Positions 833 to 64,000 of a stretch of 64,000 bases of DNA are shown one piece after another. The notes below the pieces were generated by a model. The model ran no database searches. It was not told the origin of the DNA and saw only the letters and a program-made list of their open reading frames with translations. A program made the translations under genes and the position numbers. Position 1 is the stretch's first letter; every line of letters starts with the position of its first letter. Origin of the DNA: Okamejei kenojei (lineage: Eukaryota); assembly GCA_035221665.1 (NCBI GenBank), contig CM069146.1, forward strand, positions 52,948,001-53,012,000, read 5' to 3'.

Positions 833-1629
833 GTAAGTGTACCTCTTTCAACTATCAAAGTCTGTATCAACTTTTCTGTTGGCATGCAGGTTACATTTCC
901 GAAATAAGATGAAATAAATTTAGATAAAAAATGGTTGAACACAGAAAGTAAAGATGTTTCCACTTGTGAGGGAGTCCAAAACAGGAGGCCATTAATATAT
1001 GAAAGTCAGCAGGAAATCCATGATGCGATACGAGAGAAACAACTTTATTCAGGGAGCTGTTTAAGTAGGAACTGCAGATGCAGATGCTGAAAAAAATCGA
1101 AAGTAGACAAAAAATGTTGGAGAAACTCAGCGGGTGAGGCAGCATCTATGGAGAAAAGTAGGCGACGTTTCGGGTCGAGACCCAAAAAAACTCCTTTTCT
1201 CCATAAATGCTGCCTCACCCCCTGAGTTTATTCATCGAGCTGATGCATTGTGGAATTTGGTTAAGGAATGGTTGAGATGTAGAAACGAGGAACTTAAGAT
1301 GCTGGTTAATGCACAAAAGGACACAAAGTGCTGGAGTAATTCAGCAGGTCAGGCAGCATCCCTGGAGAACATGGGTAGGTGATGTTTTGGGTTGAGATCC
1401 TTCTTCAGACTGATTGCAGGGAGAGAGAAAAAAGCTGGAAAAGGGGACAAGCGGGACAAAGTGTGACAGTTTAGTTGAGTCTTTCAGGGAACGTAATTCT
1501 TTTTAGAATGATGTGTTGGGTCAGGTCCCAATTTAGTACCTGAGCAAACCTCACACTGGTCAACTATAGACCTTAGCTTATCCACTTCCTAATTCTGTTC
1601 CATGGCCTTATATGTTATGAGAAGAAAAA

Positions 1630-2820: not shown

Positions 2821-3685
2821 AATTATGTATCGATGTACAATGAAAAGCTTTGTTTTGCATGTATTCCAATCAAATCAGATACTATACATAAATTAATTCA
2901 AGCCAAACCCAAATACAATGGGTAGAGCAAAGGAAAAGATTCTGAGTACAGAATATAATTCATTTATTGCCAATAGCAGTTTATATTTGCTAGCTTTTAG
3001 AACTAGAGTACCCAATGTTTTTTCATCTAAAATAATCTCCTGTTAGCTAATGAGTAGAATAAGAGAATCAAACTGAAGTTTCTTACTGACCTAATTTGGT
3101 CGAGTATTGAATCCTTCTGATTATTTCCAAGTAACTGTTACCATTTTGCTGCAGTGTATTTATAGTTCTATCATGTACGATGAGTGTTATAAATTGCTTC
3201 AATGCCCCTGGGAAAAGGGGAGGAAATGCCAGCCGCTTGCTCTAGGATTTAATTAGCTCCTCTGGCAAAGTAACAGTGGGTGACTAGGACAATCCTCACT
3301 AAAGTTCACTCATCATTCCTTAAAGAAGTATTCTAAAAGGCCATGTGATTATTACCCAGTGGTAAAATCCTGTGCGTTTTCTACTTGATTAATTGGAGCA
3401 GTCAATGGTGTAAATTCAACTTCAATTTTGCGACAGAGTCATAGAGTCATAGGCTCTTCGGCCCAAATTTTCCATGCTAACCAGGATGCCTCATCTGCTT
3501 TAGTTCCACCTGGGCCTCCTTAGGCCTCATGTTCACCTTCCCTATCCTTTGTGATGAAAGTATTTGAGAAAAAAAAATGGAAGGTTTGTTGAACTTTTCA
3601 ACTGATTAAATGTCGGTTTGAAGAAGGGTCTCGACTCTAAATGTCACCTATCCATGTTCTCCAGGGATATTGCCAGACCAGCTGA

Positions 3686-3975
3686 GTTTAGTTTAGTTCT
3701 GTGTAGAGATACAGCGCGGAAACAGGCCCTTCAGCCCACCGTGTCCACGCTGACAAGCGATCCCCACACACTGACACAATATAATTATACCAAGCCAATT
3801 AACCTACAAACTAGTACGCCTTTGGAGCGTGGGAGGAAACCGGAGCTCCCAGAGAAAGCCACGCACGTCACAGGGCGAAGGTACGATCTCTGTACAGACA
3901 GCATCCGTAGTTAAGATCGAACCCGGGTCTCTGGCGCTGTAGGGCAGCAACTCTACCGCTGCGCCACCGTGCCAC
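3686..3975 (-). mobile_element. tRNA-derived V-SINE (HE1-like)
   Basis: Reverse complement shows A box TGGCGCAGCGG, B box GGTTCGATC, V-domain CTCCGGTTTCCTCCCAC, CR1-like tail GGGCCTGTTTCCGCGCTGTATCTCT and (AAACT)n. Inserted into a Penelope-like arm. Confidence 0.85.
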
Positions 3976-5694
3976 ACCCATGCTGGACTTACTCCAGCAT
4001 TTTACATCGCGCCTCTCAAATGTATTAGGGTGCCAATTTAATTCTAGTTTGTGTACAATTGGTGACACAAGTAATCCTGGTCCCCATACTGATTCGGAGC
4101 ATGTACCACTGGAACTACATGGCTTCATGCACTGTTTGCAAGTTTATTGCTGATTGATTTAAAGTCCAAGAGTCTTACAGCACATCCCTTCCCCCCCCCC
4201 CCCCCCCCCCCCCCCCCCATCTGACTCCATTCAGTTCAGTCTAGTTTATTGTCATGTGTACCAAGTTACATTGAAAAGCCTTTGGCAGCAGAAAGACAAT
4301 ACGTGATTTGCAGTCGAGCCTTTACAATGCATAGATACATGATATGGGAATAACATTTAGCACAAGGTAAAACCGGCAAAGTCTGATCAACGACAGTCCG
4401 ATATTCCACCAGCATTTATAAACAAAGAACTGCATCACTGGTTTATACCAAAGATAGACACAAAGTACTGGAGCAAATCAGCAGGTCAGGCTGCATCTCT
4501 GGAGAACAAGGATGGTGACATTTCGGATCGGGACCGATCTGCAGCCTCTTGAATTGTGTCTTTATTTTTGTTTGAGTATCTGTACAGGGTGTGATGGCAC
4601 AGTAATTGCAGCTAGAATAAACACAAAATGCTGGAGTATCACAGCGGGTCAGTCAGCATCTCTGAAGAAGGGTCCTGACCTGAAACATCACCCTTCCTTT
4701 CTCTCTTTATCCCATTAAACCTTTATGATGAAACCATCTGAGAACAAAATTGAAGATTTATTAAACTTTTCAACTGATTAAATATCAGTCTGAAGAATGG
4801 TCTTGACTCGAAACCATACACATCCATGTTCTCCAGAGATGCTGCCTGACCCGCTGAGTTACTCCAGCACTCTGTGTCCACTGCTGAATTCCTCCAGCAG
4901 TTTGTTTACTCTTTTAGATCCCAACATCGGCAGACTTTTGTGTCTCCTTGCTAAAGGCCACTCATTAGCACCCTGCAAACAAAACTGTAGCGTTAACAAA
5001 CCACAATTTCTGGTGACTGACAATCAAATATTCTGAAGAATGGGTACCCTGTGGTCTTAGATCTATCTTATTAGAAAATCCAATTCACAGCAAAGGCATA
5101 CCAGTGTATTCTTCAGATGTAAACAGTAGGCATGCCAATATCAGCACCTTTAAACAGTCTTGTAGTTCAGCCTAATAATGAGCTTAGATGATTACTTTGT
5201 TTTAAAGTAAAATACTGGTGGCGTCGAAGGTGACATTTTCTGCGTAAGGGGGAAAAAAGGTGAGAGCTGATTTTCTCTTCTTGATAAAGGTGTGTGGTCT
5301 GAACTGTTTATTGTCAGAAGCAAAGGAAAATTAATGTTTCGATTTCAGTCATACCAAATAAAAGTGAATTATAAATACAAAGAATCCTATTAACCTTTAG
5401 AGCCGAGCTCTATTCGGTCTGTGTAATGAGGTGTGGGTTGTACGCCATATAATGTGCACGAGTAGCTCAGATTCCCCCCCCCCACCTCCTCCACCCCTCA
5501 CATGCTTACAGCAGCCCTTTCATTTTAATTGGGTTACTGTAGATGTTGTTATTAAACCCAACTCAATATCAGGTATGTCATGGGCAAACTGATAATTAGC
5601 ATTCACCAACAAACACTAACCATAAAAAAAATATTGCATTGTGGAATGTGCACATCTTGAAGATTTAAATCCCTTTTTAGCTTGTTTTGACTGC

Positions 5695-6784: not shown

Positions 6785-7171
6785 GTGTCGGAAGGAACTG
6801 CAGATGCTGGTTTGCACTGAAGATAGACACAAAATGCTGGAGTAAGTCAGCAAAGGTTACTCCAGCATTTTGTGTCTATCTTCAGTGCAAACCAGCATCT
6901 GCTGGAGAGAGAAGAAAACCTTTGCAGGTTACTCCAGCATTTTGTGTCTATCTTCAGTGCAAACCAGCATCTGCTGGAGAGAGAAGGAATGGGTGACGAT
7001 TTGGGTCGAGACCCTTCTTCAGACTCAGGGGAGATGGGGGGGGGGCATAGAGAAACGGAAGGGTAGGGTGTGAAAACACAGAAGTGTCTCAACACGAAGC
7101 GTCACCCATTCCTTCTCTCCAGAGACGCTGCCTGTCCCGCTGAGTTACTCCAGCATTTTGTGTCTATCTTC
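6785..7171. mobile_element. Penelope-like fold-back element with 11-bp TSD and internal 72-bp tandem rearrangement
   Basis: TSD GTGAACAAAGT at 6774-6784 and 7172-7182; arms GACACAAAATGCTGGAGTAA... / ...TTACTCCAGCATTTTGTGTC. Confidence 0.75.
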
Positions 7172-8020: not shown

Positions 8021-8705
8021 GCCACCAAAATATTCTATCAGTCGACTGGAATCCAGACACCTGCCAAATATCACCATGGCAACTGGGAATTTAAATTTGG
8101 TTAATTACATTTATCTACAATAGAAAGAGAGCATTGGAAAAATTGTAATTATGAGTCTACCCGTTCGTTATATACATTTCTCTGGTTCACTAGGTCTTGT
8201 AGAGAAGGTATTCTGCTGTCATTACCTGTTCACGCATTTATACGACACCAGAGTATATAACCCTTATAGGGGAGTAATCCATCCCCACATAGCAAGGCAT
8301 ACTGTTGTATCAAATTGCCATGCCAAATAATTGAATTAGACAAATAACCTGACAGACCTAGAAATCAGATCCACATGTGACAAAGGCATACCCAGCAGAG
8401 TACATTTTGTAAAGACGGACTCAGTCATATTTAGAGCAGAGAGGCAGAATTAGGAGGCCATTCCCTCCACAGTTGCTGCCTGACCGGCTGAGTTCCTCCA
8501 GCACTTTGTGTGTTGCTCAGGAGACCTGACCCATTGGCTAGTCAAGCAACAGCTTCATGTGGTATCTCTTAAATAGCATTTGGTTAAATAGCAAAGTTAT
8601 ACAACATGGAAACTGCCCTTCGGCCCAACTTGCCTATGCTGACCAAGTTGCCCCATCTACACGAATCCCAGCAACCTCTAGCGTTCCAGAGAAGTTATTG
8701 CAGTA

Positions 8706-9535: not shown

Positions 9536-9643
9536 AAACCTGGGATGGATTTGGCAGATGCTTACGTGACCTTTGTGCGCCAGAGTCAGGATATCCTGCG
9601 TGACAAGGTCAATGAGGAGATGTATATAGAAAGATTATTTGAT
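9536..9643 (+). CDS. CADPS: CADPS internal coding exon, 108 nt, [36 protein letters not shown]
   Basis: CTCGTTTTCCTTTCAG| acceptor, |GTAAGT donor at 9644; 36 codons recognised as the CAPS C-terminal region (embedded in ORF 9467..9775). Confidence 0.95.
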
Positions 9644-10204: not shown

Positions 10205-12832
10205 TTTCAGAGCGTCCTTTGCAAGAGATTTTGAACAGTATTCTTCACAGTCCGCACAGGATCTAAAAAATAGTTGCTGCTTTTATTGTCTCTGAAACTA
10301 TTAGGTATCCACAAGGAACACATTTTTGTAGGAAACATATAGAATACCGTAATGGATCCCTAGAATGGAAACTTCTTGTTTGCCATGAACTCTCATGATA
10401 GAAACTTCCATGCAGTAAATGTCAAAAATGTCCTTTTTTTTTAACATTGGGAATATGTAAACTGTGTTTGCTGTGTAATACTTGCAACAGCATTGACAGA
10501 TGTATTTGTGGAATTCTCGGGCGTTGAGTTAGAATAGTTGTGGGATGTTTAGAAGTTCTGTCCGTTGTACTGCTTGCTACAGCAAAGCTTTCTTTTATTT
10601 TGTATTTGCAATGTTTACAATAGATTATTATTTTCTTTTATAACCCTTTTCTATTCGTTTTTAGGGCTGATGTATTTGGTGAGGTTTTAGCAAAGTGTAG
10701 ATTTAAAATAAATCTTTTTGACAAGTGGACTTTCCACCCAAGTATTGTGTTGTATTTTTAAAGTTGTAAACTAAAATGTTTTAATTTATTTCAGTTTCTC
10801 GTGCAAGTGGCATTGTTTTGTAAAAAAAAATATTTAATTGAGGGCTCTGTATTCTGGTAGTGTGTCATTCTGTTAATCTTGCTCATATGCTTTCATAAGA
10901 CTCTGTCAGACGTCTTGTTTCGGTTGACAAAACTCCTTCCTTCCTATCCTTTGTTCTACTCTGATCACTTTCCATCTTTTCCCTTTCATCCAGTTTCTGA
11001 TAATTGAAATGAAACTTATCTCTCGCATCCAGTGTTTTGTCACATTGTATCAAGTGGCACGATTTTCAGTCGAATAATCTTTCTGTGTGCATCTACTATC
11101 GTGGCCCGCATCGACTAGATAGTTTCATACATGCATAAAGCGCGCCAGGAACACTCAATGCTCTATGCATGGATGTCTAACAGGGGACTTAAAAGGTTGT
11201 AAGAAATGGGGGAAAGATCATCCATTTGGTAGACATTGAAGACATGATCAAACCAACCAAATGACTCATATTCTATGACCTTTGGAGTGTGGAAGTTGCC
11301 AGTTTTGGTTGTCGAGCGAAACTGATGGCCAAAGAATTCACTGATGAGTCAATTGTTACGTTGGCTGATTCTGTCTAATGTCTCGATGGTATGTCGTTTT
11401 CCTCAATTGTGTTGCAATAAACTTCCTGATTGCATCTTTACATTTTTTTTAACTTTGTTCTGTCCATTCCCGGCACCCCGTTGAGTCCTTGCCCTTTACC
11501 AGTTGTCGGCCATTAATTCCACCATTGGCACAGCATCTCAGTGTGAAAAGGGTTTAGCTTCTGCGGGGCAGGGCTGATCCGAATCACTTTACCATCCTCC
11601 CTGCTGAGAGGCGATGATGTGTATGAGAACAGGTAAAGACGGGGATAATGACAGGCAAAGACAGGGATAATGGAACAACATTTTTGAGTTCCTTTGAGAG
11701 AAAAATGCTTACACTGCAATTGGGCAAAGTAATAAACTGTTGGAAGAACACAGGACTCTAGCCTCGACACAAAATCTCAACCATCTCTTTGCTTCCACAG
11801 ATGCTGCTGGAGCTGTTGAGTTCTTCCAGCAGTTTATATTTTTTTGCACAAGATTCCAGCATTGCAGTTCCATGTGCCTCCATATTCTCCAACCAAGTTC
11901 AGGAACCTTCTTCAGAGATTTTCAGAGTTTCTGCCTTGCACCTTATAGGTACCACATTCCCATACGATTGGCTTAGACTTCAGAATACCTTAATCCAAGG
12001 GCAATCAGGACAATTGCTACCCTTGTATCTCAGTTCTACAACCAGCAAATAATGCTGAATGGTGGCAAATCTAGATAATCGTTTTTAAGTGGGTCGCACT
12101 AATACTTTGTTGTTCCCAGTCATCTCTTGTGTTTTGGATTACTGCCGAGCTATTGTAAATGTCTAAATAAATTAATTGTGTGCAACATTTTGATGCACTC
12201 TATTTGCTTGCATCCATTTTAATGAAGATGCAGACCTTCATTGCATGAAAATTAAATTAAACAATGGACAGAGCTAAATTATGAGCCATTCTGATGGATT
12301 GAAGGCAAAAAGCTGTATTAACATTTCTTCAAAACATTTCTCTTTGAAGATGGTATCTGTGCAATTGAAAATATCAATTGTAAATCTTTCCAATTGGGAC
12401 CAAAGCTAAAGGAAGTTTTATACTTTTCTTACAGTTCAATATGGATATATGCAAGCAAAATAATAGTATATTCTTTTTAAATAAAAATTTGTGTTAAGTA
12501 GCAACTGATAATGACTTTTTTTTCAGCTTCCATCGTATTGTCAGAATACTGTTTCCTGCACATAGCTCAAGTGTTTAACAAACATCAACTGGTTTCAGGT
12601 TATGATTAAATTGTCCTTGCTTATATTCCAAGTTAAGTGAAATTATGCTAAAACTATACCTACAATTGAAATAAATTGCACAAAATACCAATGTGAATCC
12701 TGACACTTTCTGTCATCTTGAAGCAAGTTTAACAAAGGTAATTGTGGTTTGAGAACAGTGACCCACATAGAGTTCCTTACTGTAATATAAGAGAGTCACT
12801 TAATTTGCGAATGCTACTGATGAAGTTAGTAC

Positions 12833-13050
12833 TAAAGAAGGAACTGCAGATGCTGGAGAATCGAGGGTACACAAAAGGCTGGAGAAACTCAGCGGGTGCA
12901 GCAGCATCTAAGGAGCGAAGGAGATAAGCGACGTTTCGGGTCGAGACCCGGAGTCTGAAGAAGGGTCTCGACCCGAAAACGTCGCCTATCACCTTCGCTC
13001 CTTAGATGCTGCTGCACCCGCTGAGTTTCTCCAGCCTTTTGTGTACCCTC
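12833..13050. mobile_element. Penelope-like fold-back (palindromic) element with hammerhead-like core and 14-bp TSD
   Basis: About 90-bp near-perfect inverted arms 12860-12949 and 12963-13053; TSD GATGAAGTTAGTAC at 12819-12832 and 13051-13064; CTGAAGA-A-GGGTCTCGACCC-GAAAAC-GTC at 12955-12983. Confidence 0.8.
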
Positions 13051-15479
13051 GATGAAGTTAGTACGTTGGATGTTAGTAAGAATTATCAGTCAGAATGCTA
13101 CCGAACTACCTCTAGTTACACTGCTCATTAAACAAACCAGTTAGTACTGTGACCGAGTTCTGGAAACGTTATGTTATTACAGAATCCCAGTTCTTTTTCC
13201 TTCATTATTCTTTCTGTTTTCCATTCCCTGCCACTTTCAGAGTTTACCTTAGTTATTTACTTTATTAATACTCCATGTTTTAAATTGTCAACTACTTAAA
13301 AATGGTTGAGGTAAATCCTTTGAGAACTTTAAATTTTAATTTGGAATTCATAAATTATTTTAATCATGCCACGACTTTTTATATAAACGCACATGAACAG
13401 AAACAATCGCTAAGTATGCAATGTTACGTTATTGGATATAATTTTGCTGCATCGGGCTGTTCAGATATCCGTACTTTCGGGAGATTACGTGGATTCTAAT
13501 ATTACTTTCCATGTTCTTTATTTTAATCTCCTTTGAGAAGGAAATTAGGTGACTAAGTCAACTTTGGAATATTATCGCTTCTCAATTTCTTTCTGTCATT
13601 GTATTTAGAGTGGTAGAAACCACTTATTGATTTCAATTTGCTGTAGAAATAGGACAGTTCTTTTACTGTTTTGGAAAGCAGCAGATAGTATTGAATATAT
13701 TGTTGAAGTGCACCATACATTATGTGTACATATACATTCATTTGAAGCAGTATTTTATACGAACATATAGTATATTAATAGGAGTTTGACTGAATCTATC
13801 AACAGCCTACATCTTTAATTTCCGTTGTATATCCTGCTTGGGGTAACGCGATCTGAAATTGGAGCTGTAAATCCATCCAGCGTTTTGGAAGAATAATTTG
13901 AGTGAATGTTGAATTGCAAGGCATGTAGGAATTTTCAGGCATGCAAATACAGCGAGATAATTTAACCTTTCCTCACAAGTGGTAAACACGCTGGTTTGGG
14001 TTAGCTGTCAATTTTGTATCCCATCTGATTTGACACTGTTAATGTGAGCATTTGAATACTTAAGCAGATAGCTTCCTAATCCAACACCAGTCTGCGGATT
14101 AGAACGTACTTTGGATTGGAATTGAGAGGAAGCTCTGATAAAATCTCTTCAAGCCAAGGAGCATAATACTGCTTCCATCAAGAGCTTGTAGCAAGAAACA
14201 GATACCAAAATAATTTCATTGGATAGTGACATTTCTGTTATTTAGCCTTATGGCGGCATGAGCTCCACTGATGAGCACGGAACCCAAGAACCTCTAATAT
14301 TTAAGCACAAGCAGTGAACTCATTACAAATATTTGCATCAATTGTTTTATTTTAAAGCTGTTCCTAGAATTTGCCACTTCCTTCTTGCGGAATTACTTAA
14401 CCTTGCGACAAACCTGAAGCGTTTATCTGAGATTGCACTTTGAAAGAGCTTCCATTATGCAACAGGTTTGAAACGAAAAGCTGTAAAATACAACTTATTA
14501 TTGTGTTTGACGGGTATTTCCGTTTAGTGTGCAGTTTGTTGGCTGAAAAATAATGTAAGTGGGAAGAGACATGTGGCATAATTACACCCGTGAAGTCCGT
14601 AAGTATGACAACTTTGTTAAATAATTGTTATGGGATCAGATTTGTGCGTAGAGTTTCACTTAAAACTCTCCATATACTAGTTTCTGTTCCAGTTATAGTG
14701 GATTGTGTCCTAAATGTGATTTGCGTTGTACTTGAATTTGGTTTGAATTGCATGAGAAGTACAAAATGATACGGATTTTTTTCCTTCCAAAATCTTAGTG
14801 TTTCTTTACAATTTGTGGCAAAATTCAATTGTCTGAAATTTTAGCTATTGTCACGGAACTAAGACTGTATTAACTTTTCCATTGATGCAGCGATATTGAC
14901 CACACCATTAACCCTTCGAGATCTGACAATGCAATTATTGTTATCATGCCCTTTCACAATCTTTGTTTGTGTGGAAATAATTTATGGATTTAAGGTAAGA
15001 GGGGAAAAGTTTAAAGGAGGTGTGCAGAAAACGTTTTTTTCACACCAAGGGTAGTAAGTGCCTGGAACGCGCTGCCAGGGATGGAGGTGGAGTCAGGTAC
15101 AATAGTGGCATTTAAGAGGCTTTTAGACAGGCAAATGGATATGCAGGGAAGGGAAGGATGTGGATCTCATGCAGGCGAAGGAGTTTAGTTTACCTTGGCA
15201 TCATTTTTGGCACAGACACTGAGGGCCGAAAGGTTTGTTCTTGGTCTGTGGCTGGGGCTTTCTGTGTTCACATTACATATCAAGTAACTGGTAAAATTAG
15301 CAACACATTGCAGTAATTTACCCGGAAATGATTTGTGATGCACTTTATGTTATTGTCACATATATACAGAGGCATCAGAAAGGATCAATATGTAGGAAGC
15401 AATGTCAAATAATGTCTTCCAGAGTTTGTCCAAGTCAACGTTCCATAAAATGTATTTGTCCAATTTACAGAACACTTAG

Positions 15480-17468: not shown

Positions 17469-17968
17469 TGCCCTGTCTCTTTTAATGGATCTGGACACAC
17501 AGCCATGTGTCGATTCTTTAACGTAAATCTCCAATTGATTTGGTTAAAATAATCCAACTCCACCAATCACTCTCCACTTCGCCTGGCAAGACATAACATT
17601 TGAGGATTGGAACCGGTCAAGGAAAGAGAATAGTTCTTTGCCCACAACTACCACTCTCCAGATCATCATCTACTGATGCTGCAGCTTCAGCACCTCATAT
17701 TGGAAATTTCACGGTACTTCGCACGGAAGAGGCAACTAATTCTTTCTCACAAGGGTGAGTGACATTTTCTTTTATCTCCCACAAAATGGAAATGTCTATT
17801 GTCTCTGGTCCCTGGTCTGAAGTTAGATAGATAGGTTAAATGGCAGAATTCAGATCCGATGGTGGCATTTAAGAGACCTATGGATAGGTACATGGATATG
17901 AAGGGAGACACAAAGTGATGGAGTAACTCAGTCGGTCAGGCAGCATCTCCAGAAAAAAAGGATAGGTG

Positions 17969-19949: not shown

Positions 19950-20170
19950 CGTCACCTTCCCCTAGCTAACAATGATCTATTCTACCTTTTCCCTGAGCCG
20001 CATCCACATTGATCTCTCATTTTCATACCGTACCCTTCCATATCTCCGTGTAACCCTGTCCCCTTGACCGTCAGTCTGAAGACTGGTCTCGACCCGAATC
20101 GTCACCCATTCCTTCCATCCAGAGATGCGACCAGTTCCGCTGAGTTACTCCAGTATTTCGTATCTATCTC
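19950..20170 (+). mobile_element. Penelope-like element 3' fragment (pyrimidine-rich body plus one arm)
   Basis: CAGTCTGAAGACTGGTCTCGACCCGAATCGTCACCCATTCC...CTGAGTTACTCCAG, preceded by about 120 bp of C/T-rich body like that at 26510-26600 and 43585-43670. Confidence 0.6.
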
Positions 20171-20364
20171 TATTTTTTTTCATACTTCTTAAGGCAATTT
20201 AACCTTGAAACCATCTCCATCAACACCCATGGACCACATTTAGGAGTAAAGCCTCTCGATAAATATCGGAAGACTGTTTGATAATGATGTATGTCATTGT
20301 CAAGCCCAGAGATTCTTTTAGGATTTTTTGATTTTTTTTAAACCAAATTGATAACTCAATTCAC

Positions 20365-22168: not shown

Positions 22169-22269
22169 CGGTAGACACAAAATGCTGGAGTAACTCAGCA
22201 GGACAGGCAGCAACTCTGGAGAGAAGAAATGGGTGAAGTTTCGGGTCGAGACCCTTCTTCAGACCTTTG
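22169..22269 (-). mobile_element. Single-arm Penelope-like element with 10-bp TSD
   Basis: TSD GCTATTCTTT at 22159-22168 and 22270-22279; minus strand reads GTCTGAAGAAGGGTCTCGACCCGAAACTTC. Confidence 0.7.
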
Positions 22270-25448: not shown

Positions 25449-26929
25449 CTCGGAGTGATGGAAGTGGCTCTCTATGCCCACTGGAGCTCAGACAATGTAA
25501 TCAGATGGCAGTGCGAGGGGATATATAGTCCAGAACCAGCCCTGCCTCACGACCCCACAGAAAACACTGGACAGATGATAAAGCCTCACCACATTCTTTA
25601 CCATCTGTCCATTTTTTTTAAAAATGCTTCCAAACTTATTGAAAATAAGTTAACATTGATTAAAAATTAGATAATATATAAACTAAAAACACTTGCGAAA
25701 CTAGGAACTGGGAGTATAAGCATCTTACCTTCTCTCCATTCCCCCAGCCCTCCAATTCCCATTTAAATGAATGGGCTCGTGGATCTCAGCCCACTTCTAA
25801 CCTGGCAGATTCTGCAATGCAAATCCTGGAAAATATCAGCCAGTTCGTTCAGGGTTCGGCACTCAAGTAGGAGTCCGGAAACTTGCCAGGACTTGTGTTG
25901 AGTGAAGCTGGCAGGTGCGTATGGAAGCAAATGGCAAATCTCAGCAAAGTCTGAACCAACAATTTTGCTTGCAGACGTCAAACTTTTAGCAGAGACACAA
26001 CAGACTGCAGATGCTGGAAACTTGAGCAAAAAACAAAGTGCTGGGGGATCTCATCGATCGCCCCTGTTCTATATTATCCCACTTTTGCATCCATTCCCTA
26101 CACACTCACGGGGTGACTCACGGAGGATGATCAACCTACAAAACCCACTGTTCTTTTTCCAATGGGACGTGGAAGGAAACCGTAGCACCTGGAGGAAACC
26201 CACGTGGTTATAGGGAAAACGTGCAAACTCCACACATACAACGCCCAAATTGCAACACACTGACCACATTGATGGGGAAACCTACAGACTTGCACAGTGG
26301 TACCTGTGTTTAATGTAGATCATGTAGTTAGAGGCAGCTTAAGAGTCTTGAGTTTGTCTACAAAAGCAGCACGGGTTTAATGAAGTGTAACACTAAAAAG
26401 CTTCACTGATCATTTACGTATGTGAAATTGTGTAATTATCTGAAATTGTTAAACTCAATGTTGAAGATGAAAGCCAATTATAAGTACTAGGAATATTTGC
26501 CCACCTCCACCCCCACCTTTAACCACCTATCACTTGTCTCTGTCCAAGCCAACCTCCCTTTTCCAGCTTTCTCCCCCTCCCACTACAATTAGTCCCATCG
26601 AAGGGTCCCGATCCACAACTCCAGCGCATCAGGGGTCCCTGCACACCCTTGATTGGAAGTGAACAGGGATGATTCACTTCTTAAACACCTGGAAGTATGG
26701 CAACTCTCATCGCCACAGATGCTGGCTGACCCACTAACTGTGCCAGGAAGAGAGAGAAAGTCCTGCAGATGCTGGAACCCTGAGCAATACGCAAACTGCT
26801 GGAGGACACCTGTCCATTCCCTCCACAGATGCTGCCTGACCCACTGTATTCCTCCGGCACATTGTATCTTTTTCTTTCGTAAACCAGCGTCTGCAGTTCC
26901 TTGTGCCTACAATATTACACCTGTTCGCA

Positions 26930-27180: not shown

Positions 27181-29049
27181 GAACAAATATTCCTCCCAAA
27201 TCTCTATCTATAAATTTCCAGTTCGTACCTTTGCATCTGCAGTCACTTGATCTACAATATTTTACCAGTTAGGGACAAACATCCTCATAGGTCTCCATCG
27301 ATCAATTTCCCAGTGTATATACCCCAGGTTGGAATAAAATCCCTGCCAGGATTGTGGATTTATAAAATTGGCTGTTATATTTCTATCAAGTCAACAACAG
27401 ACACCTAATTTGAGCATTCAGCAGCATACATTAACATGAACACTGGAAGCAGGTTCCAACTGAGAAAGCAGACACAATTGAGTGTGTCGTGTGGCATTTC
27501 TTAAAATATCATTCCCACTACACACGTTGTCTTCGTGCAGTTTTTATTAATAGAAAGAGGTACAAAAACACTCTGGTGTAGTCACTGTGGGAAAAAAACA
27601 CAGCATTTGAATGCTCATTTTCAACTGTTACGACAGGCAGCTTCCTCATGGAGTCAGGCATGTATAAATTGTGCAGTCAAATTGTAAGATTTGTTCTTGC
27701 AAAATGAGGGATACCGACACCCAACATTACTGGTGAAACTCAGAAAAAATCCCATGCCCCTCTGACTTGTAAATCAGAAATATCAAATGTATCTTTGTCC
27801 TCGAAACCTTCTGTGGTTGTGCCTTGCAATAAGATTGTGTGAAGATAAAATATTCTACTCTCAACAGCAGCCAGCCTACTTCAGCTTGACTCTGACCCAG
27901 TGCCAGTGATCTGTGATTCACCGCTTGTTCCCTCTGCCAAGTCAATAAAGGCCCTCTTGAATGAGCGGAGCTCTTGTAAGCTGCAAATGTTGTAAATGGT
28001 GCGGAGTTGAATGCCACTGCGCCAAGGAACAGGTTTTATTCTCCTCCCTTTATAAGGCAGAGATAGATAGATTCCTGATTAGTACAGGTGTCAGGGGTTA
28101 TGGGGAGAAGGCAGGAGAATGGGGTTCGGAGGGCGCGTTAGATCGGCCATGATTGAATGGCGGAGTAATTGATGGGCCAAATGGTCTCATTCTGCTCCTA
28201 GCGCTCAGGATTTTATGAGCCCTGCTCGTTCTCCGTTCATGGGCATTTCAGTAGGAAGGGCTTTTTTTTCCATGAACGGCTGGAAATTGAATCATCAAGA
28301 ATGCTAACTGGGTGGAACAGTGATACAGCCGTTGCCTCAGAGCGCCAGAGACCCCGGTTCGATCCTAACCTCGGGTGCTGTGGAGTTTATTTTAGAGGTC
28401 TAGAATGGAAACGGACCCTTTGGTCCACCAAAGATAGACACAAAATACTGGAGTAACTCATCTGGTCAGGGCAGCATCTCTGGAGTGGAGAAAAGGAATA
28501 GACGACGTTTCGATTGAGACTCTTCTTCAGAATACCCTTCAGTCTGGCCTTTACTACACCTTTGGTCCACCAAGTCCACCCCGACCATCGATCACCCGTT
28601 TGCATTAGTTCTATGTTATTCCACTTTCTCATCCACTCTCTACATAAATTAGGGATAATTTTTACAGCGGCCAATTTGGAGTTTGCAAGTTGTTCACGTG
28701 ATCACGTGGGCTTCCTCCGGGTGCTCCTGCTTCCTCGCACATCCCAACCATGCACGTTTGCAGGTTATTTGGCCTCTGTAAAATTGTGCCTGGTGTGTAG
28801 GGAATGGATGAGAAAGTAGGATAACACAGAACTAGTACGAACGGGTAATCGAGTGATGGTCAGCATGGACTCGATGGGCCGAAGGGCCAGTTTCCATTCT
28901 GTTTCTCTAAAACTTAAAAATTAAACTCAAACAAAAATTAAATCCCTTCCTTCCAATATACAAAACAAATTGATTGCTGACAAGCTGCTTTTACACAATT
29001 GCAGGCAGTAGTGCGGCATTTCTTAAATGCCACACTATAAGATATAAGT

Positions 29050-30552: not shown

Positions 30553-30612
30553 TTCTGTAAGGTATCACTTCTTGGCCAAAACGAACATTTTATCAATTTC
30601 CCAGATTGTTAA

Positions 30613-32697: not shown

Positions 32698-32969
32698 CCA
32701 AAAGTTGTTAAAAATATATTCTTATCTTGGTCTTAACAGACCTGTTGCCCTGGCAACCCACTGGATCAGTGAGGCGATGGTTGGCCCAACAATGCTGTCA
32801 GTTACTCCCACTGACCTAGGGGTTCCACAAACTCATTGTAAAAGGTGGGTTGATGCTTGGAAGTCACTTTGTCAGCTGGGGCATTGCAGGATGAGGATGA
32901 GGGAGACGAGGGAGAACATGCCAGCTATTTAGGACCGAGATAAGGTGGACCTTTATTTATTTGGAAGGG

Positions 32970-33400
32970 AACACAAAGTCCGAGATGCACCAGTGGGTCA
33001 GGCTTCTGTGGAGGGAATGGAAGGCAATATTTTGGGTCAGGTATTCGAGTCTGAAGAAGGTTCCTGACCCGAAATGTCACCTATCCATTCCCACCCCAGG
33101 CGCTGCCTGACCTGCTGAGTTCCTCCAGTACTTCGCAATTTTCTCAACTTCCAGCATCTGCAGTTCCTTGTGTCTTCCTTTGGAGGTCTTCCGACAACTA
33201 TAGACATGACAGAGTTTGATAGGTTTTAGGTTACAGAGAAAATGAAGCAACATGAGATTGTGACAGGAGATTAACTCAAGTTCCAACCCGGAACGTCACC
33301 TATCCATGTTCTCCAGAGATGCTGCCTGACCCGTTGAGTTAGTCCAGCATTTTGTGTCTTTTTTTTAAAAATAAACCAGCATCTGCAGTTCCTCACGTCT
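32970..33400. mobile_element. Penelope-like arm cluster
   Basis: AGTCTGAAGAAGGTTCCTGACCCGAAATGTC at about 33048; second arm 33285-33395 ending CCAGCATCTGCAGTTCCT. Confidence 0.65.
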
Positions 33401-33599
33401 CTAAAGAACTCGAGAACTCGGGATCACCATAATCCTACTGAAGAACAAAGTGGGCTAAAGGAAGCATATGACTAACTCCTGTTATTTTTTTATGTTCTCA
33501 AATGAAAATTGATCCAGGTCCAATAATATAAATAGGGTGAGAGCTTTCAAAATGTGTCCGCGACACTCTAACCAAGCGCATTCTGTTGTGATACACCTA

Positions 33600-35115: not shown

Positions 35116-35739
35116 TTCCTCTCCCCCCATCCCTTCCTCTCCCCTCCCTCTCCCTCTCCCCTCCCTCCCTCTCCCCCCTCCCTCCTCTCTCCCCCCTCCC
35201 CACTTTACCAGTCACTTTATATTTGCACATTGAGTTTCTGCAGAAACTATTTTAAAAATGTATTTGCCTCGTGTGCAGTAAATCACCTTTCACAATGGCA
35301 CTTCAGAGAGCCTGATTGGCACCATATCGCTGTGTGTGAAAACACTGAAAATAGCAGCATTTTCACAAAAATTACCACGAGCAAATGCAGAGATAAAAGC
35401 AGTTTTTAAACCCACAAAAAAAGTGTTTCAAAAGAAACATCTTCACCTATTGAGTCACTGTAACAATTAAATTAATCACTGAGAATTCCCAAAAGGCCCC
35501 AATTCATATCCAGCACATTTTGCCCTTCTCATCCGTCTGGAAACGCAAAACTGCACTTCTGAATGAGTCAATTCAGTTTAGTTTAGCTTATTGTCACGTG
35601 TAGCGAGGTACAGTGAAAAGCTTTTGTTGCGTGCTCCCTTTTTCACGAAGGTAGACACAAATTGCTGGAACGGGTGACGTTTCGGGTCCAGACCATTCTT
35701 CAGTCCCTTTTGCACCATCCTTTGTAAAACTTCGTACAT

Positions 35740-43584: not shown

Positions 43585-44230
43585 GATCATCAGTTACCCG
43601 CCCTGACTTGTTCTGGCCTGTTCTCGCCTCCATTTTAATTTACCCCCTCCCCCACTTCTACTTTCAGTCTGAAGAAGATGTCCCAACCCAAAACATTGCC
43701 CATCCCTTTTCTCCAGAGATGCTGCCTGATCCACAGAGTTGCTCCTGCATTTTGTGTCTATCTTCAGTATAAACCAGCACCTGCAGTTCCTTCCTACACA
43801 TAGAACAGCAGAGTACAGGACCAGGGCCTTCAGCCCACAGTGTCCGTGCCAACGTGATGTCACATTAAACTAATCTCCTCTGCCTGCACATGACCCATAT
43901 CCCTCCATTCTCTGCACATTCATGTGCCTATCTGAAAGCACAATGGATAAAATATCCTGGTTTGTTTCGTATAGAGATACAGCCAAACAGGACCTTTGGC
44001 CCACCGAGTCCGCACCGACCAGCAATCACAGCACACTAACACTACCCTACACACACTAGGGACAATTTCACATTTATACCAAGCCAATTAACCTACAAAC
44101 CTGCACGTCTTTGGAGTTGGGGAGGAAACCGAAGAACTTGGGGGAAAAAACCACGCAGAATGTACAAACTCCATACAGACAGCACACGTGATCAGGATGG
44201 AACTCGGGCCTCTGGCAGTGAGTGCCACCG
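43585..44230. mobile_element. Penelope-like 3' fragment (43585-43800, +), CR1 tail and V-SINE (43960-44230, -)
   Basis: CAGTCTGAAGAAGATGTCCCAACCCAAAAC...CTGCAGTTCCTTCCTACAC; SINE V-domain TTTGGAGTTGGGGAGGAAACCG. Confidence 0.65.
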
Positions 44231-49623: not shown

Positions 49624-50674
49624 TTTCAAAATGGCAGGAAGCAGAAGAAAGAATTAATTTTCATCAGAATTAAACCAGCTCACTGCTATCATGTGTAAAA
49701 GGATCCATGACAAACAGCCTCCTGATTCTTACTTTAGAAATAACATCAGGTAGAAGTGAAAGGTCTGTGCGGACACTGCCTAAAGCTGGTGAATTACATT
49801 ATGTTGGAGCGTCGCAGTGTATTTGCACCCAAGACCAACTAAACCAACATGACAATCACTTGTCCTGTTTCACTCAATATTAAAACAGCCCAAAATTCCA
49901 CGGGAAGAAATCAATAGACTGTATACTTTGCAAAGTGGAAGCCAATGCACAGTATACTCGGCGATATCACAGTGTTGGAACATTTCTACCTACAAATATG
50001 TGCAATATCGACAAAGGTTAATGCGCTGACAACACTAGTTTATTGCAGCTAGTAATAAATATTATAGATTCTGATGATGGCAAGGCTGTCAATGCTCTAT
50101 AGAACCATCTATGAATTGCAACATGTGTGACTGATAACTCTAAAGTGAGATTAAAGAATCTTGTTGGTGTATACTTGTTAAAACCTGCAGTTGTTTTGGG
50201 TTTCAATGTAGTGAAGATTATTGGGATTATTATTTTTCTGCGCCACTTACCAACACAATGCGGGCAGAAATGGTGCACACACACACACACCTCCGAAAAA
50301 AAGTGGTGAAGACCTTGGTTGTATCTAGGTTCCTGTGATCCCTTCACCGGAGTGATCAAGTGAGGAATCTAGCATGCAAATTCACCCTTACATCCACAGT
50401 GTTAAGTGCCATTCAGAAAAAAAGCACACACATTTTGTCACACTTCTGTTGTACGCACACAATCAAGTTGTTCCTTACATTTAGTTACAATTACACAACC
50501 ACTAATTTCAATTTTTTTCCTCTTCTTGGTACGAGCGGGGGAACTGTGGAGCAAAGAATGACCAAAGCCTTGGGCATGTAGAGAAGGGTCTCAACCCGAA
50601 ACGTCAACCATTCCTTCGCTCCAGAGATGCTGCCTGTCCCGCTGAGTTACTGCAGCATTTTGTATCTAGCTTTA

Positions 50675-50977
50675 AGGGCGCCTGTCCCACTTTCCCGAGT
50701 TACTCACGAATTCTCGCGAGTTTCCCCCTTGATTCAAACTCGGAGAATGTCCATGGTGAGTCCGTAGGAGTCCGTAGATATATATCGTAGCGGCTCGTTA
50801 TGCCAGCCGTAGGTACTCGGGGCATCAGGTAAGTCGGGACGTTTTTTCCAGCATGACAAAATATGTCCACGAGTATTGATAGTCGTGAGGAGGAGTTCGC
50901 AGATCACAAAAATCTTGATTTTTTTTGTTAAGGTCCTTTCAACTCGGCATAGGACTCGGGAAAGTGGGACAGGCCCT
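50675..50977. mobile_element. PIF/Harbinger-type MITE
   Basis: TTA TSD at 50672-50674 and 50978-50980; TIR AGGGC..CTGTCCCACTTTCCCGAGT / ACTCGGGAAAGTGGGACAGGCCCT. Confidence 0.8.
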
Positions 50978-51798: not shown

Positions 51799-52006
51799 GA
51801 TAATGGAAGACGCAATGTGTTGGAGTAACTCAACAGGACAGGCGGCATCTTTGGAGGGAAGGAATGGGTGACATTTTGGATCGAGACCCTTCTTCTGACC
51901 TAAAATGCCCCCCATTCCTTCTCTCCAGAGATGCTGCCTGTCCCTCTGAGTTACTCCAGCATTTTGTGTCTATCTTCGGTGTAACCAGCAGTTCCTTCCT
52001 ACACAG
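51799..52006. mobile_element. Penelope-like fold-back element with 12-bp TSD
   Basis: TSD TAAATTATGGAA at 51787-51798 and 52007-52018; inverted arms; long tail CAGTTCCTTCCTACAC on the right. Confidence 0.75.
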
Positions 52007-53981: not shown

Positions 53982-54194
53982 GGAAAGAACAGCAGATGCT
54001 GGTTTAAATCGAATGTAGACACAAAAATGCTAGAGTAAGTCAGCGGGTCAGACAGCATCTCTGGAGAGAAGGAATGGGTGACGTTTCGGGTCGAGGCCCT
54101 TCTCCACAAGAAAGGCCTCGACCCGAAACGTCACCCATTCCTTCTCTCCAGAGACGCTGTCTGACCCACTGAGTTACTCCAGCATTTTGTGTCC
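53982..54194. mobile_element. Penelope-like fold-back element with 14-bp TSD
   Basis: TSD ATCACATTACAGTA at 53968-53981 and 54195-54208; about 85-bp inverted arms around a short spacer near 54104-54110. Confidence 0.8.
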
Positions 54195-56382: not shown

Positions 56383-56623
56383 TACCTCACTGAAGCTCAA
56401 ACACGACAGCCTGGGTTAACTCAAAGTACAAAGCACTGTCTTTGCCAAGGACATTGTGGGTTTTATATCCAGGCGGCAAGCTTGCAAAGGCTGGCGGATA
56501 AGGCACATTGGTACGTGCAACTGGGACAGGCATGTTACAGTTATAAAGGAATAGGTGCCGTTCTGGGTCAAGACCCTTCCTTAGTCTGCCGACCCGATCT
56601 TCAGGTGCTGGAAAAATTGAAGG

Positions 56624-56713
56624 TGGACAAAAATGCTAGAGAAACTCAGTGGGTGAGGCAGCATCTCTGGAGAGAAGGAATGGGTGACGTTTCGGGTCAG
56701 GACCCTTCTTCAG
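56624..56713 (-). mobile_element. Penelope-like arm with intact minimal hammerhead core (56686-56713)
   Basis: Minus strand: CTGAAGA-A-GGGTCCTGACCC-GAAAC-GTC-ACCCATTCC. Confidence 0.65.
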
Positions 56714-57845
56714 CCGAAGCTGTATTAATCTATGACTATGCACGGTGGAATCTTGGCTAAGGCTGGATTCTCAGCAGCCTGCACCTGAAGTCTCTGTTCA
56801 CTAAGTGCCACGTAAGCAGATACTCTTTCATCAGCCAAATAGAAACCCAATCTGAATTTCTCAATCATTTTGCTTGGAGACCCAAGCATAGCAACGGAAA
56901 AACTTAACAATAGGTGTAGGCTAATCATCCGTTTTAAGCAATTCCCTAATTTAGATTGATCAGATATAATTCATATTGCAACTCAGTTTTCCTGCCACTG
57001 ATCCACTTCATACCCTTACCTAATAAAAATGTTTTATATGTCAGTCATAAAAATTCATGTCACAGCAAACCCTCGTCATAACAGACCATAGATGTGGTGA
57101 GGGATGGTGTCCACTATTGCCGATTGTCCACAGTAGCCAAGTAAAGTATTATTGTATAAGTAGCAGAAACAAACCACTGCCGTTGTTGGTAAATACACAA
57201 AAGGACAGAGAGTGCTGGAGTAACTCAGCGGGTCAGGCAGCATCTCTGGAGAACATGGATAGGTGACGTTTTGGGTCGGGACCCGTCTTCAGCCTCTCGG
57301 TCTGGAACTGGGCCTGGGATCCAGGTGAATTGACGGCTCCCGACCTGCTGGCAGCTGGTGAGCAGGTGAGGATCGGAGGAGTCAATGGTCGCGGCCCATG
57401 GACGTGGGTCAGAGGAGGCGGTGGCAGGCACGGCCTGGAAGTGGCCTGGAAGCTGTGTAGGCTCCAGCATTTCTAGGGGGCTTCTGAGGGGGCTCTTGTA
57501 ATTTTGTCCAGATTAAAGGAAGTGCCGGACCATCAGTTGCTAGAAAATCGTGGTGGACTTGTGGATTTGTCATCTGTCAAATACTCTGAAGTGGTGAAAA
57601 GTCGTCTCCTCCTCCTGTAGTGAATCAACCCTGAGATTAAAACCAACATTCACTGCCCTTTTGGATTTGTTTTTAAATAAATGTCCAAGTTTTGTGTGAA
57701 TTGTATACTTGGGCATCCAAGTCCCTCTACTCTGCTCAAGTACCTTTTCCATCAGTTAGACGAGATTCTAAATTGTATTTCTTCTCTGCAGTGCAGTTAC
57801 CTACTTTCCCATTGAACATTTGCCGCAGTTTTCAAACATAGAACT

Positions 57846-58053
57846 GTATAGACAGAAAGTGGTGGAGTCATTAAGTGGGTCAGACAGCAGCCCTGGAGGA
57901 AGTAGATTGGTGGGGACCCTTTCTCAGACTGAAGAATGGTCCCAAACCAAAATGTCACCTATCCACATTCTCCAGAGGTGCTGCCTGACCCACTGAGTTA
58001 CTCCAGCACTTTGTGTTCTTTTTCTTAACTAGCACCTGCAGTTCTTTGTTTCT
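57846..58053. mobile_element. Older Penelope-like fold-back element with 10-bp TSD
   Basis: TSD ACATAGAACT at 57836-57845 and 58054-58063; diverged inverted arms. Confidence 0.65.
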
Positions 58054-63360: not shown

Positions 63361-64000
63361 TCGGGTATCGAGAAAAGTTAAAAATCCAATCAAAATAATC
63401 AAATATCAATACCGGTACATCAATAATAAAAATGAAAGCATCAAAACATTTATATAAACCAAATTAATTAAAATGAAGTGTATATTCCCAGTCATGCATA
63501 GCTGTTCCTTTCTCTTGAAACAAAGGGACTTCTGAAAAGAGGTCCTGACCCAAAACGCCACCTAAAGAGTTTTTCTTAGATTTCATGCTCACAAAAATAA
63601 ATAGAAAATATGAAAACACAATAAGACAAAGGCCATAATTCCTATGAGGTCCATTTATTTGGTCGATGCAAAGAGGTGCAGATGCTGGAATATTGGAGTC
63701 TGAAGAAAGGTCCCGAGCCGACATGTTGTCTGTCCATTTCCTCCACAGATGCTGCCTGATCCTTTGAGTTCCGCAAACTTACTATTTGGCTCCATTTATT
63801 TTATCGTTGGCTGAAAATGTACACTTTTGGACTGCATGTGGCTTCCAAATTCTCGACCCATAATAACTTCCACAAAAAACAAACAACTGTAAAAAAAAAA
63901 GGCCTGTTATTGAGAGAGTTCTTTGTTTCCTGGATTCATTGCAAAACAGCAGAGACACTTCAGATTTATATCGGTGAATAATCATCGAAAATGGAAACAC

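What the first reader, a model, noticed from the sequence alone, without database searches (positions are those of the whole stretch)
12819..13064. High-copy family of short fold-back retroelements carrying a minimal hammerhead-ribozyme core
Seen: about 20 copies or fragments in 64 kb (e.g. 1064-1412, 4420-4945, 6785-7171, 12833-13050, 19950-20170, 22169-22269, 28430-28545, 32970-33400, 35645-35703, 43585-43800, 50580-50670, 51799-52006, 53982-54194, 56624-56713, 57195-57292, 57846-58053, 63675-63770). They share the consensus AGT-CTGAAGA-A-GGGT(CTCG/CCTG/CCCG/CTGG)ACCC-GAAAC-GTC-ACC. That is the CUGANGA / stem II / GAAA / GUC layout of a type I hammerhead, with a variable loop but largely conserved stem II, and helix III reduced to the palindrome ACGU. 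Established: Penelope-like elements carry such minimal, dimer-dependent hammerheads in their pseudo-LTRs, often insert as inverted pseudo-LTRs with one arm bearing a 30-40 nt tail, and make variable-length TSDs. All three traits are present here (TSDs of 10-14 bp; tail CCAGCATCTGCAGTTCC on one arm). Inference: a non-coding, retrozyme-like Penelope derivative has amplified massively in this lineage. Caveats: local stem I is only about 2 bp (GT/AC), most copies have core mutations (this copy has an extra A, GAAAAC), and no Penelope ORF is in the window.
Basis: partly seen in the sequence, partly recalled or inferred. Interest (0 to 1): 0.8.

Follow-up and report, generated by a model that had tools for sequence, protein, structure and literature searches.

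The report
Truncated Penelope retrotransposon ends, vestigial hammerhead
These abundant little hairpin repeats in a fish-gene intron look like the clipped-off ends of a known kind of jumping gene (Penelope-like), each carrying a mostly broken self-cutting RNA motif, rather than a new self-cleaving element.

Summary
The family is real: 45 arms in 25 loci, 6.7% of the window; all 17 listed loci confirmed. The core has the published layout of Penelope-like-element (PLE) minimal hammerheads. PLE insertion signs are present: two 3' ends about 34 nt apart (tail), head-to-head inversions (10 vs 1), and 10-15 bp target duplications (7 of 25 loci vs 4 of 392 random sites). One unnamed database peptide reads this repeat about 200 nt downstream of DNA whose shifted frame fits a Neptune-type GIY-YIG end; this is indirect, single-record evidence for the parent. 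Named hits are little-skate gene models.

The 'retrozyme' reading is not supported. There are no tandem arrays, all 10 fold-back junctions differ, only 2 of 34 arms start at the cleavage site, and no neighbouring pair has two intact cores. Helix I is 2 bp, so the consensus fails the published descriptor, and the focal hairpin buries the core.

Best reading: dead-on-arrival, 5'-truncated pLTR insertions made by a PLE protein priming from both nicked strands. One lead remains: 15 arms start within 5 nt of the core, often after a G, which hints at a capped RNA start there. Known kind, apparently undescribed family.

The parts
12819..12832 (.). Left target-site duplication (14 bp) of the focal insertion
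   Evidence: exact repeat at 13051-13064
12833..12862 (-). 30-nt 'tail', present only on the left (antisense) arm
   Evidence: sequence; tail about 34 nt family-wide
12863..12949 (-). Left arm body; stops at stem II (profile column 134), so it lacks CUGANGA
12950..12951 (+). GG at the junction; not found in the copies that continue upstream
12952..13050 (+). Right (sense) arm, tail-less, starting 3 nt before the core
12955..12983 (+). Hammerhead-like core: CUGAAGA 12955-61, bulged A 12962, stem II 12963-74, GAAA plus an extra A 12975-79, CGUC 12980-83; helix I only 2 bp
13051..13064 (.). Right target-site duplication
1057..1419 (.). Fold-back (1057-1228, junction at the stem II palindrome) plus a separate tailed minus arm (1279-1419)
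3599..3688 (+). Single arm; shares about 72 nt of atypical upstream sequence with the arm at 4771
4415..4948 (.). Complex cluster of five arms
6785..7171 (.). Fold-back with internal duplication, 11-bp TSD, about 60 nt of upstream pyrimidine-rich sequence on one arm
19952..20176 (+). Longest arm: about 125 nt of pyrimidine-rich upstream sequence (presumed 3' UTR), core and tail-less end
22169..22269 (-). Single arm between 10-bp TSDs; the only window match to the full published min-HHR descriptor
26750..26916 (.). Old head-to-head pair, both arms tailed (possibly two insertions)
28432..28558 (-). Single arm between 15-bp TSDs
32958..33404 (.). Fold-back plus a second sense arm
35643..35703 (-). 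Internally deleted single arm with an 8-bp flanking repeat
43603..43808 (+). Tailed single arm with upstream pyrimidine-rich extension
50582..50675 (+). Single tail-less arm
51799..52006 (.). Fold-back, 12-bp TSD, tail on the right arm
53982..54194 (.). Fold-back, 14-bp TSD, tail on the left arm
56545..56715 (-). Two same-strand arms: one with an intact core but no helix I, one decayed
57164..57315 (-). Single arm
57846..58053 (.). Fold-back, 10-bp TSD, palindromic junction just 5' of the core, tail on the right arm
63531..63772 (+). Two decayed same-strand arms
8458..8523 (+). Short fragment; other fragments at 11761-11883, 17896-17968, 18343-18397, 25984-26055 and 39353-39414

Best explanation
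The arms are the 3' ends (pseudo-LTRs) of an endonuclease-bearing Penelope-like retrotransposon, probably Neptune-type, in a skate-like genome. Each locus is a separate, heavily 5'-truncated insertion. Mechanism: (1, inferred) the element's RT/GIY-YIG protein nicks both target strands about 8-15 bp apart, giving the variable duplication. (2, inferred from the PAc in vitro work; two-end pattern shown here) reverse transcription starts inside the RNA at one of two sites about 68 and 102 nt 3' of the hammerhead cut site, giving tail-less and tailed ends. (3, shown) most cDNAs stop at or just 5' of the hammerhead, through the uncut GUC site. (4, inferred) when both nicks prime, two cDNAs meet head-to-head and join, often through the palindromes at stem II or just before the core, giving a fold-back with one tail. 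The hammerhead is inherited cargo. It is non-functional in nearly all genomic copies and, in the master element, either vestigial or dependent on protein or dimer help.
For: 3' ends are bimodal: 17 arms at columns 212-232, 17 at 250-268, 3 between and 8 earlier, of 45; tail about 34 nt. Adjacent opposite-strand arms are head-to-head in 10 cases and tail-to-tail in 1, with exactly one tail in 7 of 10; 6 vs 1 among 35 database peptides. Exact duplications of 10 bp or more at 7 of 25 loci vs 4 of 392 random sites, 66% AT vs 57% for the window. Sister arms share subfamily alleles (0.74 vs 0.49 permuted; 9 of 10 pairs, 1 dropped for too few columns) while the junctions all differ. At 12833 and 51799 the tail is on the arm with the shorter 5' reach, so it cannot have been copied from its sister cDNA; this favours two primings over cDNA self-priming. 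The same anatomy is described for PLEs (PMC8557442; PMC3846280; PMC11167929). Peptide P0037 matches the arm (E 2e-13). Upstream of that match, its -1 frame admits four ordered GIY-YIG blocks in one frame at Neptune-like spacing (aa 13, 36, 67, 96; 24 of 5,000 shuffles, motifs read from Fig. S2), ending about 200 nt before the core. CpG decay: G12 is A in 12 of 31 arms; 57 of 71 changes at CpG sites are G>A or C>T.
Against: No PLE ORF lies in the window: 0 GIY-YIG hits among 394 ORFs of 55 aa or more. The parent link rests on one unnamed record, read by back-translation, with motifs chosen after seeing it. A first motif chain failed, the C-terminal block alone occurs in 704 of 5,000 shuffles, and 1 of 52 other peptides also gave an any-frame chain. 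The search around it found only itself. P0037's spacer did not match the window's upstream extensions above shuffles. 18 of 25 loci show no exact duplication of 10 bp or more. Only 6 of 34 arms extend upstream, which is more extreme truncation than a plain LINE-like model predicts. Non-CpG core positions are more conserved than the rest of the arm (6.9% vs 16.8% mismatch, P=0.016), which argues against a fully dead motif in the masters.
Confidence: 0.8

Rival explanations
1. The arms are PLE-derived, but most were copied from short pLTR-only RNAs that start at an initiator-like site 3 nt before the hammerhead core (from solo pLTRs, or the 5' pLTR of a tandem element) and were mobilised in trans: a SINE-like non-autonomous derivative. 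This refines the best explanation rather than excluding it.
For: 15 of 34 arms start at columns 121-127, within 5 nt of C3. Among truncated arms with AG at -3/-2, the next base 5' is G in 5 of 6 (5 of 8 with the palindromic pair; P=0.002 / 0.014), against C in 4 of 5 arms that continue upstream. This resembles a cap-templated extra G (recalled concept). A start there would cap helix I at 3 bp or fewer. pLTRs hold promoters (PMC2377424 passages) and can act in trans (PMC3846280 passages). Arms 3599 and 4771 share a different 72-nt 5' module (E 2e-15).
Against: Small numbers, noticed after the fact. 11 other arms start at columns 128-146 and 6 run upstream. RT stalling or template switching at the structured, palindromic core explains the clustering equally well. 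There are no RNA data.
Confidence: 0.35
2. One reading: an active non-LTR retrozyme, in which dimer-dependent self-cleavage gives circular RNAs that are reverse-transcribed and re-inserted.
For: The consensus core fits PLE min-HHRs (bulged A, G10.1-C11.1, palindromic C-G; PMC4209133). The core is more conserved than the flank. Retrozymes derive from pLTRs and were found in the one chondrichthyan sampled (bioRxiv 10.64898/2026.07.22.740005).
Against: No tandem array of the unit among 19 TRF rows. All 3 same-strand core pairs have at least one broken core. Only 2 of 34 arms start at the cut site. Helix I is 2 bp, and 1 site in the window meets the published descriptor. No covariation above shuffles. 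The hammerhead fold costs +34.9 kcal/mol in the focal RNA.
Confidence: 0.07
3. A DNA-transposon MITE whose long inverted arms happen to include a hammerhead-like string.
For: The fold-backs are about 210-220 nt with long inverted arms and flanking duplications.
Against: Duplication lengths of 8-15 bp, not fixed. The ends are asymmetric (one tail in 7 of 10). Single arms sit between their own duplications at 22169, 28432 and 35643. Every junction differs. The motif is far above chance (4 descriptor cores without helix I vs a mean of 0.05 in 100 Markov sequences).
Confidence: 0.03

Closest known systems
Pseudo-LTRs of EN+ Penelope-like elements (Neptune; Penelope/Poseidon)
   Same: 5' truncation to a shared 3' end, optional 30-40 nt tail, inverted 5'-truncated copies meeting head-to-head at palindromes, variable 8-15 bp duplications, hammerhead in the pLTR (PMC8557442, PMC3846280 and PMC8969392 passages).
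   Different: No ORF-bearing or partial-tandem copy in the window. Extreme density (1 locus per 2.6 kb) and extreme truncation. No insertion preference for microsatellites was seen in the 8 duplication-bounded sites.
PLE minimal hammerheads (Cervera & de la Pena 2014, PMC4209133)
   Same: CUGAAGA + bulged A + stem II opening G-C + GAAA + CGUC; mostly single motifs or opposite-strand pairs. The same C-G-U-C helix III occurs in the Takifugu, Petromyzon and Xenopus examples (Fig. S3).
   Different: Helix I is 2 bp (one G-C, one U-A), below the descriptor's 3 bp; the five 2-bp cases in Fig. S3 text (Culex, three Drosophila species, Oikopleura) have two G-C pairs. Stem II is only 4 bp. No cartilaginous fish appears among the 56 examples.
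PAc (Poseidon of Anolis; Frangieh et al. 2024, PMC11167929)
   Same: Two RT start sites bracketing the tail, both strands cut and extended, AT-rich targets, uncleaved RNA as the insertion substrate.
   Different: PAc's ORF starts in stem II; no long ORF start was found in these arms. The upstream endonuclease remnant in P0037 looks Neptune-like.
Metazoan non-LTR retrozymes (PMC7229834; bioRxiv 10.64898/2026.07.22.740005)
   Same: Non-coding, pLTR-related, type I hammerhead, long duplications.
   Different: Retrozymes are head-to-tail tandem repeats with a complete hammerhead in each unit and circular RNAs. Here the copies are solo or head-to-head, mostly with broken cores.

Membership tests
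EN+ Penelope-like element | Single ORF with RT and C-terminal GIY-YIG upstream of the pLTR | tested here: inconclusive
   Absent from the window (0 of 394 ORFs); a GIY-YIG-compatible shifted frame lies about 200 nt upstream in one database peptide; RT not seen
EN+ Penelope-like element | 5'-truncated copies sharing the 3' end | tested here: met
   34 of 45 arms end in two narrow clusters; 5' starts vary
EN+ Penelope-like element | Optional 30-40 nt tail, often on one end only | tested here: met
   About 34 nt; one tail in 7 of 10 fold-backs
EN+ Penelope-like element | Inverted 5'-truncated copy, head-to-head | tested here: met
   10 vs 1 in the window; 6 vs 1 of 35 database peptides
EN+ Penelope-like element | Variable-length target duplication | tested here: met
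   10, 10, 11, 12, 14, 14, 15 bp at 7 of 25 loci vs 4 of 392 random sites
EN+ Penelope-like element | Partial-tandem full-length copies | not testable with these tools
   No eukaryotic genome collection was available
PLE minimal hammerhead (2014 descriptor) | CUGANGA, stem II 3-7 bp, GAAANNUH, bulge, palindromic 15.2/16.2 | tested here: met
   Consensus fits; column counts
PLE minimal hammerhead (2014 descriptor) | Helix I of at least 3 bp | tested here: not met
   Consensus 2 bp; 1 window site reaches 3 bp
PLE minimal hammerhead (2014 descriptor) | Compensatory changes in the helices | tested here: not met
   81.5% of cells paired but 460 of 500 shuffles as high; 1 pair with a two-sided change, 19 copies
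PLE minimal hammerhead (2014 descriptor) | Self-cleavage as a dimer or with protein | not testable with these tools
   Needs an in vitro assay
Rfam hammerhead families | Covariance-model match | tested here: not met
   None among 19 matches at E<=10
Non-LTR retrozyme | Head-to-tail tandem units, each with a complete hammerhead | tested here: not met
Non-LTR retrozyme | Unit ends set by the cleavage site | tested here: not met
   2 of 34 arms start at columns 147-156
Non-LTR retrozyme | Circular RNA in tissues | not testable with these tools
   No RNA data
MITE (DNA transposon) | Symmetric terminal inverted repeats and fixed duplication length | tested here: not met
MITE (DNA transposon) | Copies share one internal sequence | tested here: not met
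   10 of 10 junctions differ

The most novel reading that the evidence does not exclude
In skates a Neptune-type pLTR has become a very high-copy, SINE-like parasite. Its capped RNA starts 3 nt before a hammerhead core, which would explain the 2-bp helix I. The PLE protein copies it in trans from both nicked strands, leaving on the order of 10^5-10^6 solo and fold-back copies (about 860,000 if this window's density held over a 2.2-Gb assembly; extrapolation only). The core would be kept by the masters as a protein-assisted decapping switch or RNP-binding signal rather than as a free ribozyme. The copies would then be a huge natural record of how PLE integration works in vivo.
Probability: 0.25. 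Interest if true: 0.55.

Novelty: new member of a known kind. Interest (0 to 1): 0.3.

Why it matters
As a kind it is known: PLE ends with minimal hammerheads are reported in their thousands in fish, frog and coelacanth genomes. The value is practical and mechanistic. This family covers 6.7% of the window, gets pulled into little-skate gene models (3 named hits), and was not found described in my literature searches. Its many short, independent insertions allow a direct in vivo test of two-site, two-strand priming versus self-priming in PLE integration, and of whether hammerhead cleavage matters for insertion; here the uncut template is what was inserted. It is not evidence of a large population of active ribozymes.

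Tried and rejected
- Rfam scan: only sub-threshold miRNA-hairpin and similar matches, no hammerhead.
- Pfam on all 394 stop-to-stop ORFs of 55 aa or more: no GIY-YIG; 5 RVT_1, 1 AP-endonuclease-type and 1 RT-RNase H hit belong to other retroelements. Shorter or frameshifted remnants would be missed. A short-motif scan of all six frames gave 1 irrelevant hit.
- Idea that a PLE ORF starts inside the arm, as in PAc: two alignments of arm translations searched against longer proteins gave 9 and 17 hits and an HMMER search gave 35. All are chance translations, and none has a PLE domain (Pfam run on the 35; precomputed domains for the 17). P0036 is an arm sitting in a LINE endonuclease frame.
- Search for relatives of P0037's upstream part: only itself. 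The ESM Atlas gave only chance-level scores (0.75-0.76).
- DNA-level match of P0037's spacer to the window's upstream extensions: not above shuffles for 3 of 3.
- Covariation: none (one search had helix I mis-registered and is superseded).
- Isolated 56-nt cores: stem II predicted in 2 of 8, no full hammerhead fold, z from -1.65 to +1.47.
- A covariance model built from window copies found 36 matches, but this is circular.
- Orientation bias against the host transcript: none (24+/21- arms; 10+/11- core-spanning).
- tRNA head: none by ARAGORN.
- PDB search for the host exon: no match.
- Lunse et al. 2017 was not held; I saw it only as cited in a review.
- The bacterial genome scan, structure prediction and complex prediction were not used, as they do not bear on the question.
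Full report
OBSERVATION. The repeat family is real. An iterated nhmmer profile seeded from window copies found 45 arms (4,259 bp, 6.7% of the window) and none on the reversed sequence. The focal locus is a 218-nt insert between exact 14-bp duplications (12819-12832, 13051-13064). It has an antisense arm with a 30-nt tail (12833-12949), GG, and a sense arm (12952-13050) carrying CUGAAGA-A-stem II-GAAAA-CGUC. The arms agree at 78 of 80 columns and share 10 non-consensus bases. The RNA folds as one hairpin of -180.4 kcal/mol. In profile columns, C3 is 126 and the cut site follows 153.

SETTING. Two spliced exons with MUN-domain hits lie on the + strand at about 9536-9643 and 42328-42432; the name CAPS/CADPS is recalled, not from a call. 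Twelve loci lie between them, 5 before and 8 after. Translations of the repeat hit three NCBI gene models of the little skate Leucoraja erinacea, so the family is present in skates; the window's own species was not established. The RT ORFs in the window are of other retroelements (the 'CR1-type' label is recalled), and none of 394 ORFs of 55 aa or more has a GIY-YIG hit.

ANATOMY OF THE INSERTIONS. 3' ends fall in two clusters, 17 arms at columns 212-232 and 17 at 250-268, with 3 between and 8 earlier; these are about 68 and 102 nt past the cut site, a tail of about 34 nt. Adjacent opposite-strand arms are head-to-head in 10 cases and tail-to-tail in 1, and 7 of the 10 carry exactly one tail. 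Among 35 database peptides that translate the repeat by chance, 6 are head-to-head and 1 tail-to-tail. Exact flanking repeats of 10-15 bp occur at 7 of 25 loci against 4 of 392 random sites; three single arms sit between their own duplications (one of them 8 bp). Thirteen of 25 loci are single arms. Sister arms share subfamily alleles (0.74 vs 0.49 in 20,000 permutations; 9 pairs, 1 dropped), yet all 10 junctions differ, and 7 of 10 overlap by shared or palindromic bases. So the fold-back is made at each insertion; it is not the amplified unit. This is the anatomy described for Penelope-like elements: a 5'-truncated inverted copy and a 30-40 bp tail (PMC8557442, passages); head-to-head repeats with palindromic junctions, 8-10 bp duplications and solo pLTRs (PMC3846280, passages); and two RT start sites bracketing the tail, both strands cut and extended, uncleaved RNA inserted (PMC11167929, parts 1-2 of 4).

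LINK TO A PARENT. Peptide P0037 (unnamed ENA record) matches the arm from residue 184 (E 2e-13). Upstream, its -1 frame admits, in order and in one frame, the V/I-Y block, the T-K-R-x-L block, H-F and the E-x3-I-x2-L-x4-P-x-G block at residues 13, 36, 67 and 96; 24 of 5,000 shuffles do so. The P-x-G ending is seen in the Neptune rows but not the Penelope/Poseidon rows of PMC8557442 Fig. S2 (supplement parts 54-55). The block ends about 200 nt before the core, where a pLTR hammerhead is expected. Limits: it is one record, read by back-translation, with motifs chosen after seeing it. An earlier chain failed, the last block alone occurs in 704 of 5,000 shuffles, and 1 of 52 other peptides gave an any-frame chain. 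No relatives were found, and the spacer did not match the window's upstream extensions.

IS IT A RIBOZYME? By descent, very likely. The core without helix I occurs 4 times against a mean of 0.05 in 100 Markov sequences. It has the bulged base, G10.1-C11.1 and palindromic 15.2/16.2 of PLE min-HHRs, and C-G-U-C is common in the published set (PMC4209133, parts 1-2 of 4 and its supplementary PDF). Non-CpG core positions are more conserved than the rest (6.9% vs 16.8%; P=0.016), while loop II varies. By function in these copies, hardly. 21 of 45 arms span the core and 4 pass a lenient rule; G12 is A in 12 of 31 through CpG decay. The consensus helix I is 2 bp, so it fails the published descriptor, which 1 window site meets. 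There is no covariation and no Rfam hit. The dimer helix III would be a 4-bp duplex (-1.7 kcal/mol). All 3 same-strand core pairs include a broken core, and the hammerhead fold costs +34.9 kcal/mol in the focal RNA. Of 34 arms reaching the core region, 32 begin 5' of the cut site: the templates were uncut. There is no orientation bias against the host transcript.

MECHANISM. Most likely (0.8) a PLE protein nicks both strands with a stagger, primes internally at either of two sites, and stops at or near the hammerhead. One priming gives a solo arm and two give a fold-back. The self-priming model proposed in PMC3846280 (on an antisense template) is not excluded. Simple cDNA fold-back is disfavoured at 12833 and 51799, where the tail is on the arm with the shorter 5' reach; 32958 fits either. 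Unexplained: 15 of 34 arms start within 5 nt of C3, and a G precedes the start in 5 of 6 informative cases (5 of 8 with the palindromic pair). RT stalling at the core is the alternative.

COMPARISON AND NOVELTY. It works like a PLE pLTR and meets four PLE features tested; the ORF link is inconclusive. It is not a non-LTR retrozyme as defined (tandem units with complete hammerheads; PMC7229834 passages; bioRxiv 10.64898/2026.07.22.740005, parts 1-3 of 5): there are no arrays. That preprint reports retrozymes in one chondrichthyan, and its supplements were closed, so overlap with this family is unchecked. It is not a MITE. Searches for a description in cartilaginous fish found none. The skate genome paper (passages; 0 uses of 'Penelope' in the listing) reports a 2.2-Gb assembly dominated by LINEs, a class under which PLEs are often filed (PMC8969392 passages). 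Passages of PMC6765202, PMC2377424, PMC12602865 and bioRxiv 2025.06.08.657570 were also read. Dfam and Repbase could not be checked.

VERDICT. Observation confirmed; interpretation partly supported. A new, very abundant member of a known kind; interest 0.3.

Noticed in passing
window 9536-9643 and 42328-42432 (+): Two consecutive spliced exons with MUN-domain hits (CAPS/CADPS-like, name recalled) flanking a 32.7-kb intron that holds the focal element.
   Followed up: partly
window 3528-3688 and 4700-4881: Two arms share about 72 nt of upstream sequence (82% identical) unlike the pyrimidine-rich upstream of the other copies; possibly a composite non-autonomous subfamily or a local duplication.
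   Followed up: partly
arms at 4415, 12946, 33044, 57164, 63691: A G precedes the element's start where the copies that continue upstream mostly have C; possible cap-derived G at an initiator-like site.
   Followed up: partly
P0045, P0046, P0051 (little skate NCBI models): The repeat is translated inside predicted FIGLA, TNFRSF6B-like and UFL1 proteins: exonisation or annotation artefacts.
   Followed up: no
window 29130-30608, 44617-47521, 61249-62914 (-): LINE RT/endonuclease remnants (CR1-type by recall), one with a 493-aa open frame; many shorter 3' fragments elsewhere.
   Followed up: no
window 52152-52442 (+): RT/RNase H-like fragment of an LTR retrotransposon (Pfam RT_RNaseH_2, E 2e-14).
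   Followed up: no
window 1715-2128 (-): 138-aa frame with a Pfam ALKBH8_N hit, probably the 3' end of another LINE clade (recalled).
   Followed up: no
window 15565-15950, 18624-19149, 30614-30942: A second, unrelated set of inverted-repeat elements with similar ends and 250-270 nt spacers; these look like true MITEs.
   Followed up: no
window 28588-28852 and 46142-46697: Other inverted pairs, apparently from oppositely oriented SINE/LINE copies.
   Followed up: no
window 6785-7171: Internal 49-nt direct duplication (6856-6904 / 6928-6976) within a TSD-bounded fold-back, suggesting repeated template switching.
   Followed up: partly
window 13048-13053, 54195-54197, 58054-58056: The first 3 bases of the duplication match the element's expected continuation, hinting at short priming microhomology; seen by eye, not tested.
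   Followed up: no
window 25584-25630 (+): Weak extra match (E 0.046) to the covariance model, not in the nhmmer set.
   Followed up: no
window 23526-23671, 34965-35115, 41697-41827: Three assembly gaps (N runs).
   Followed up: no
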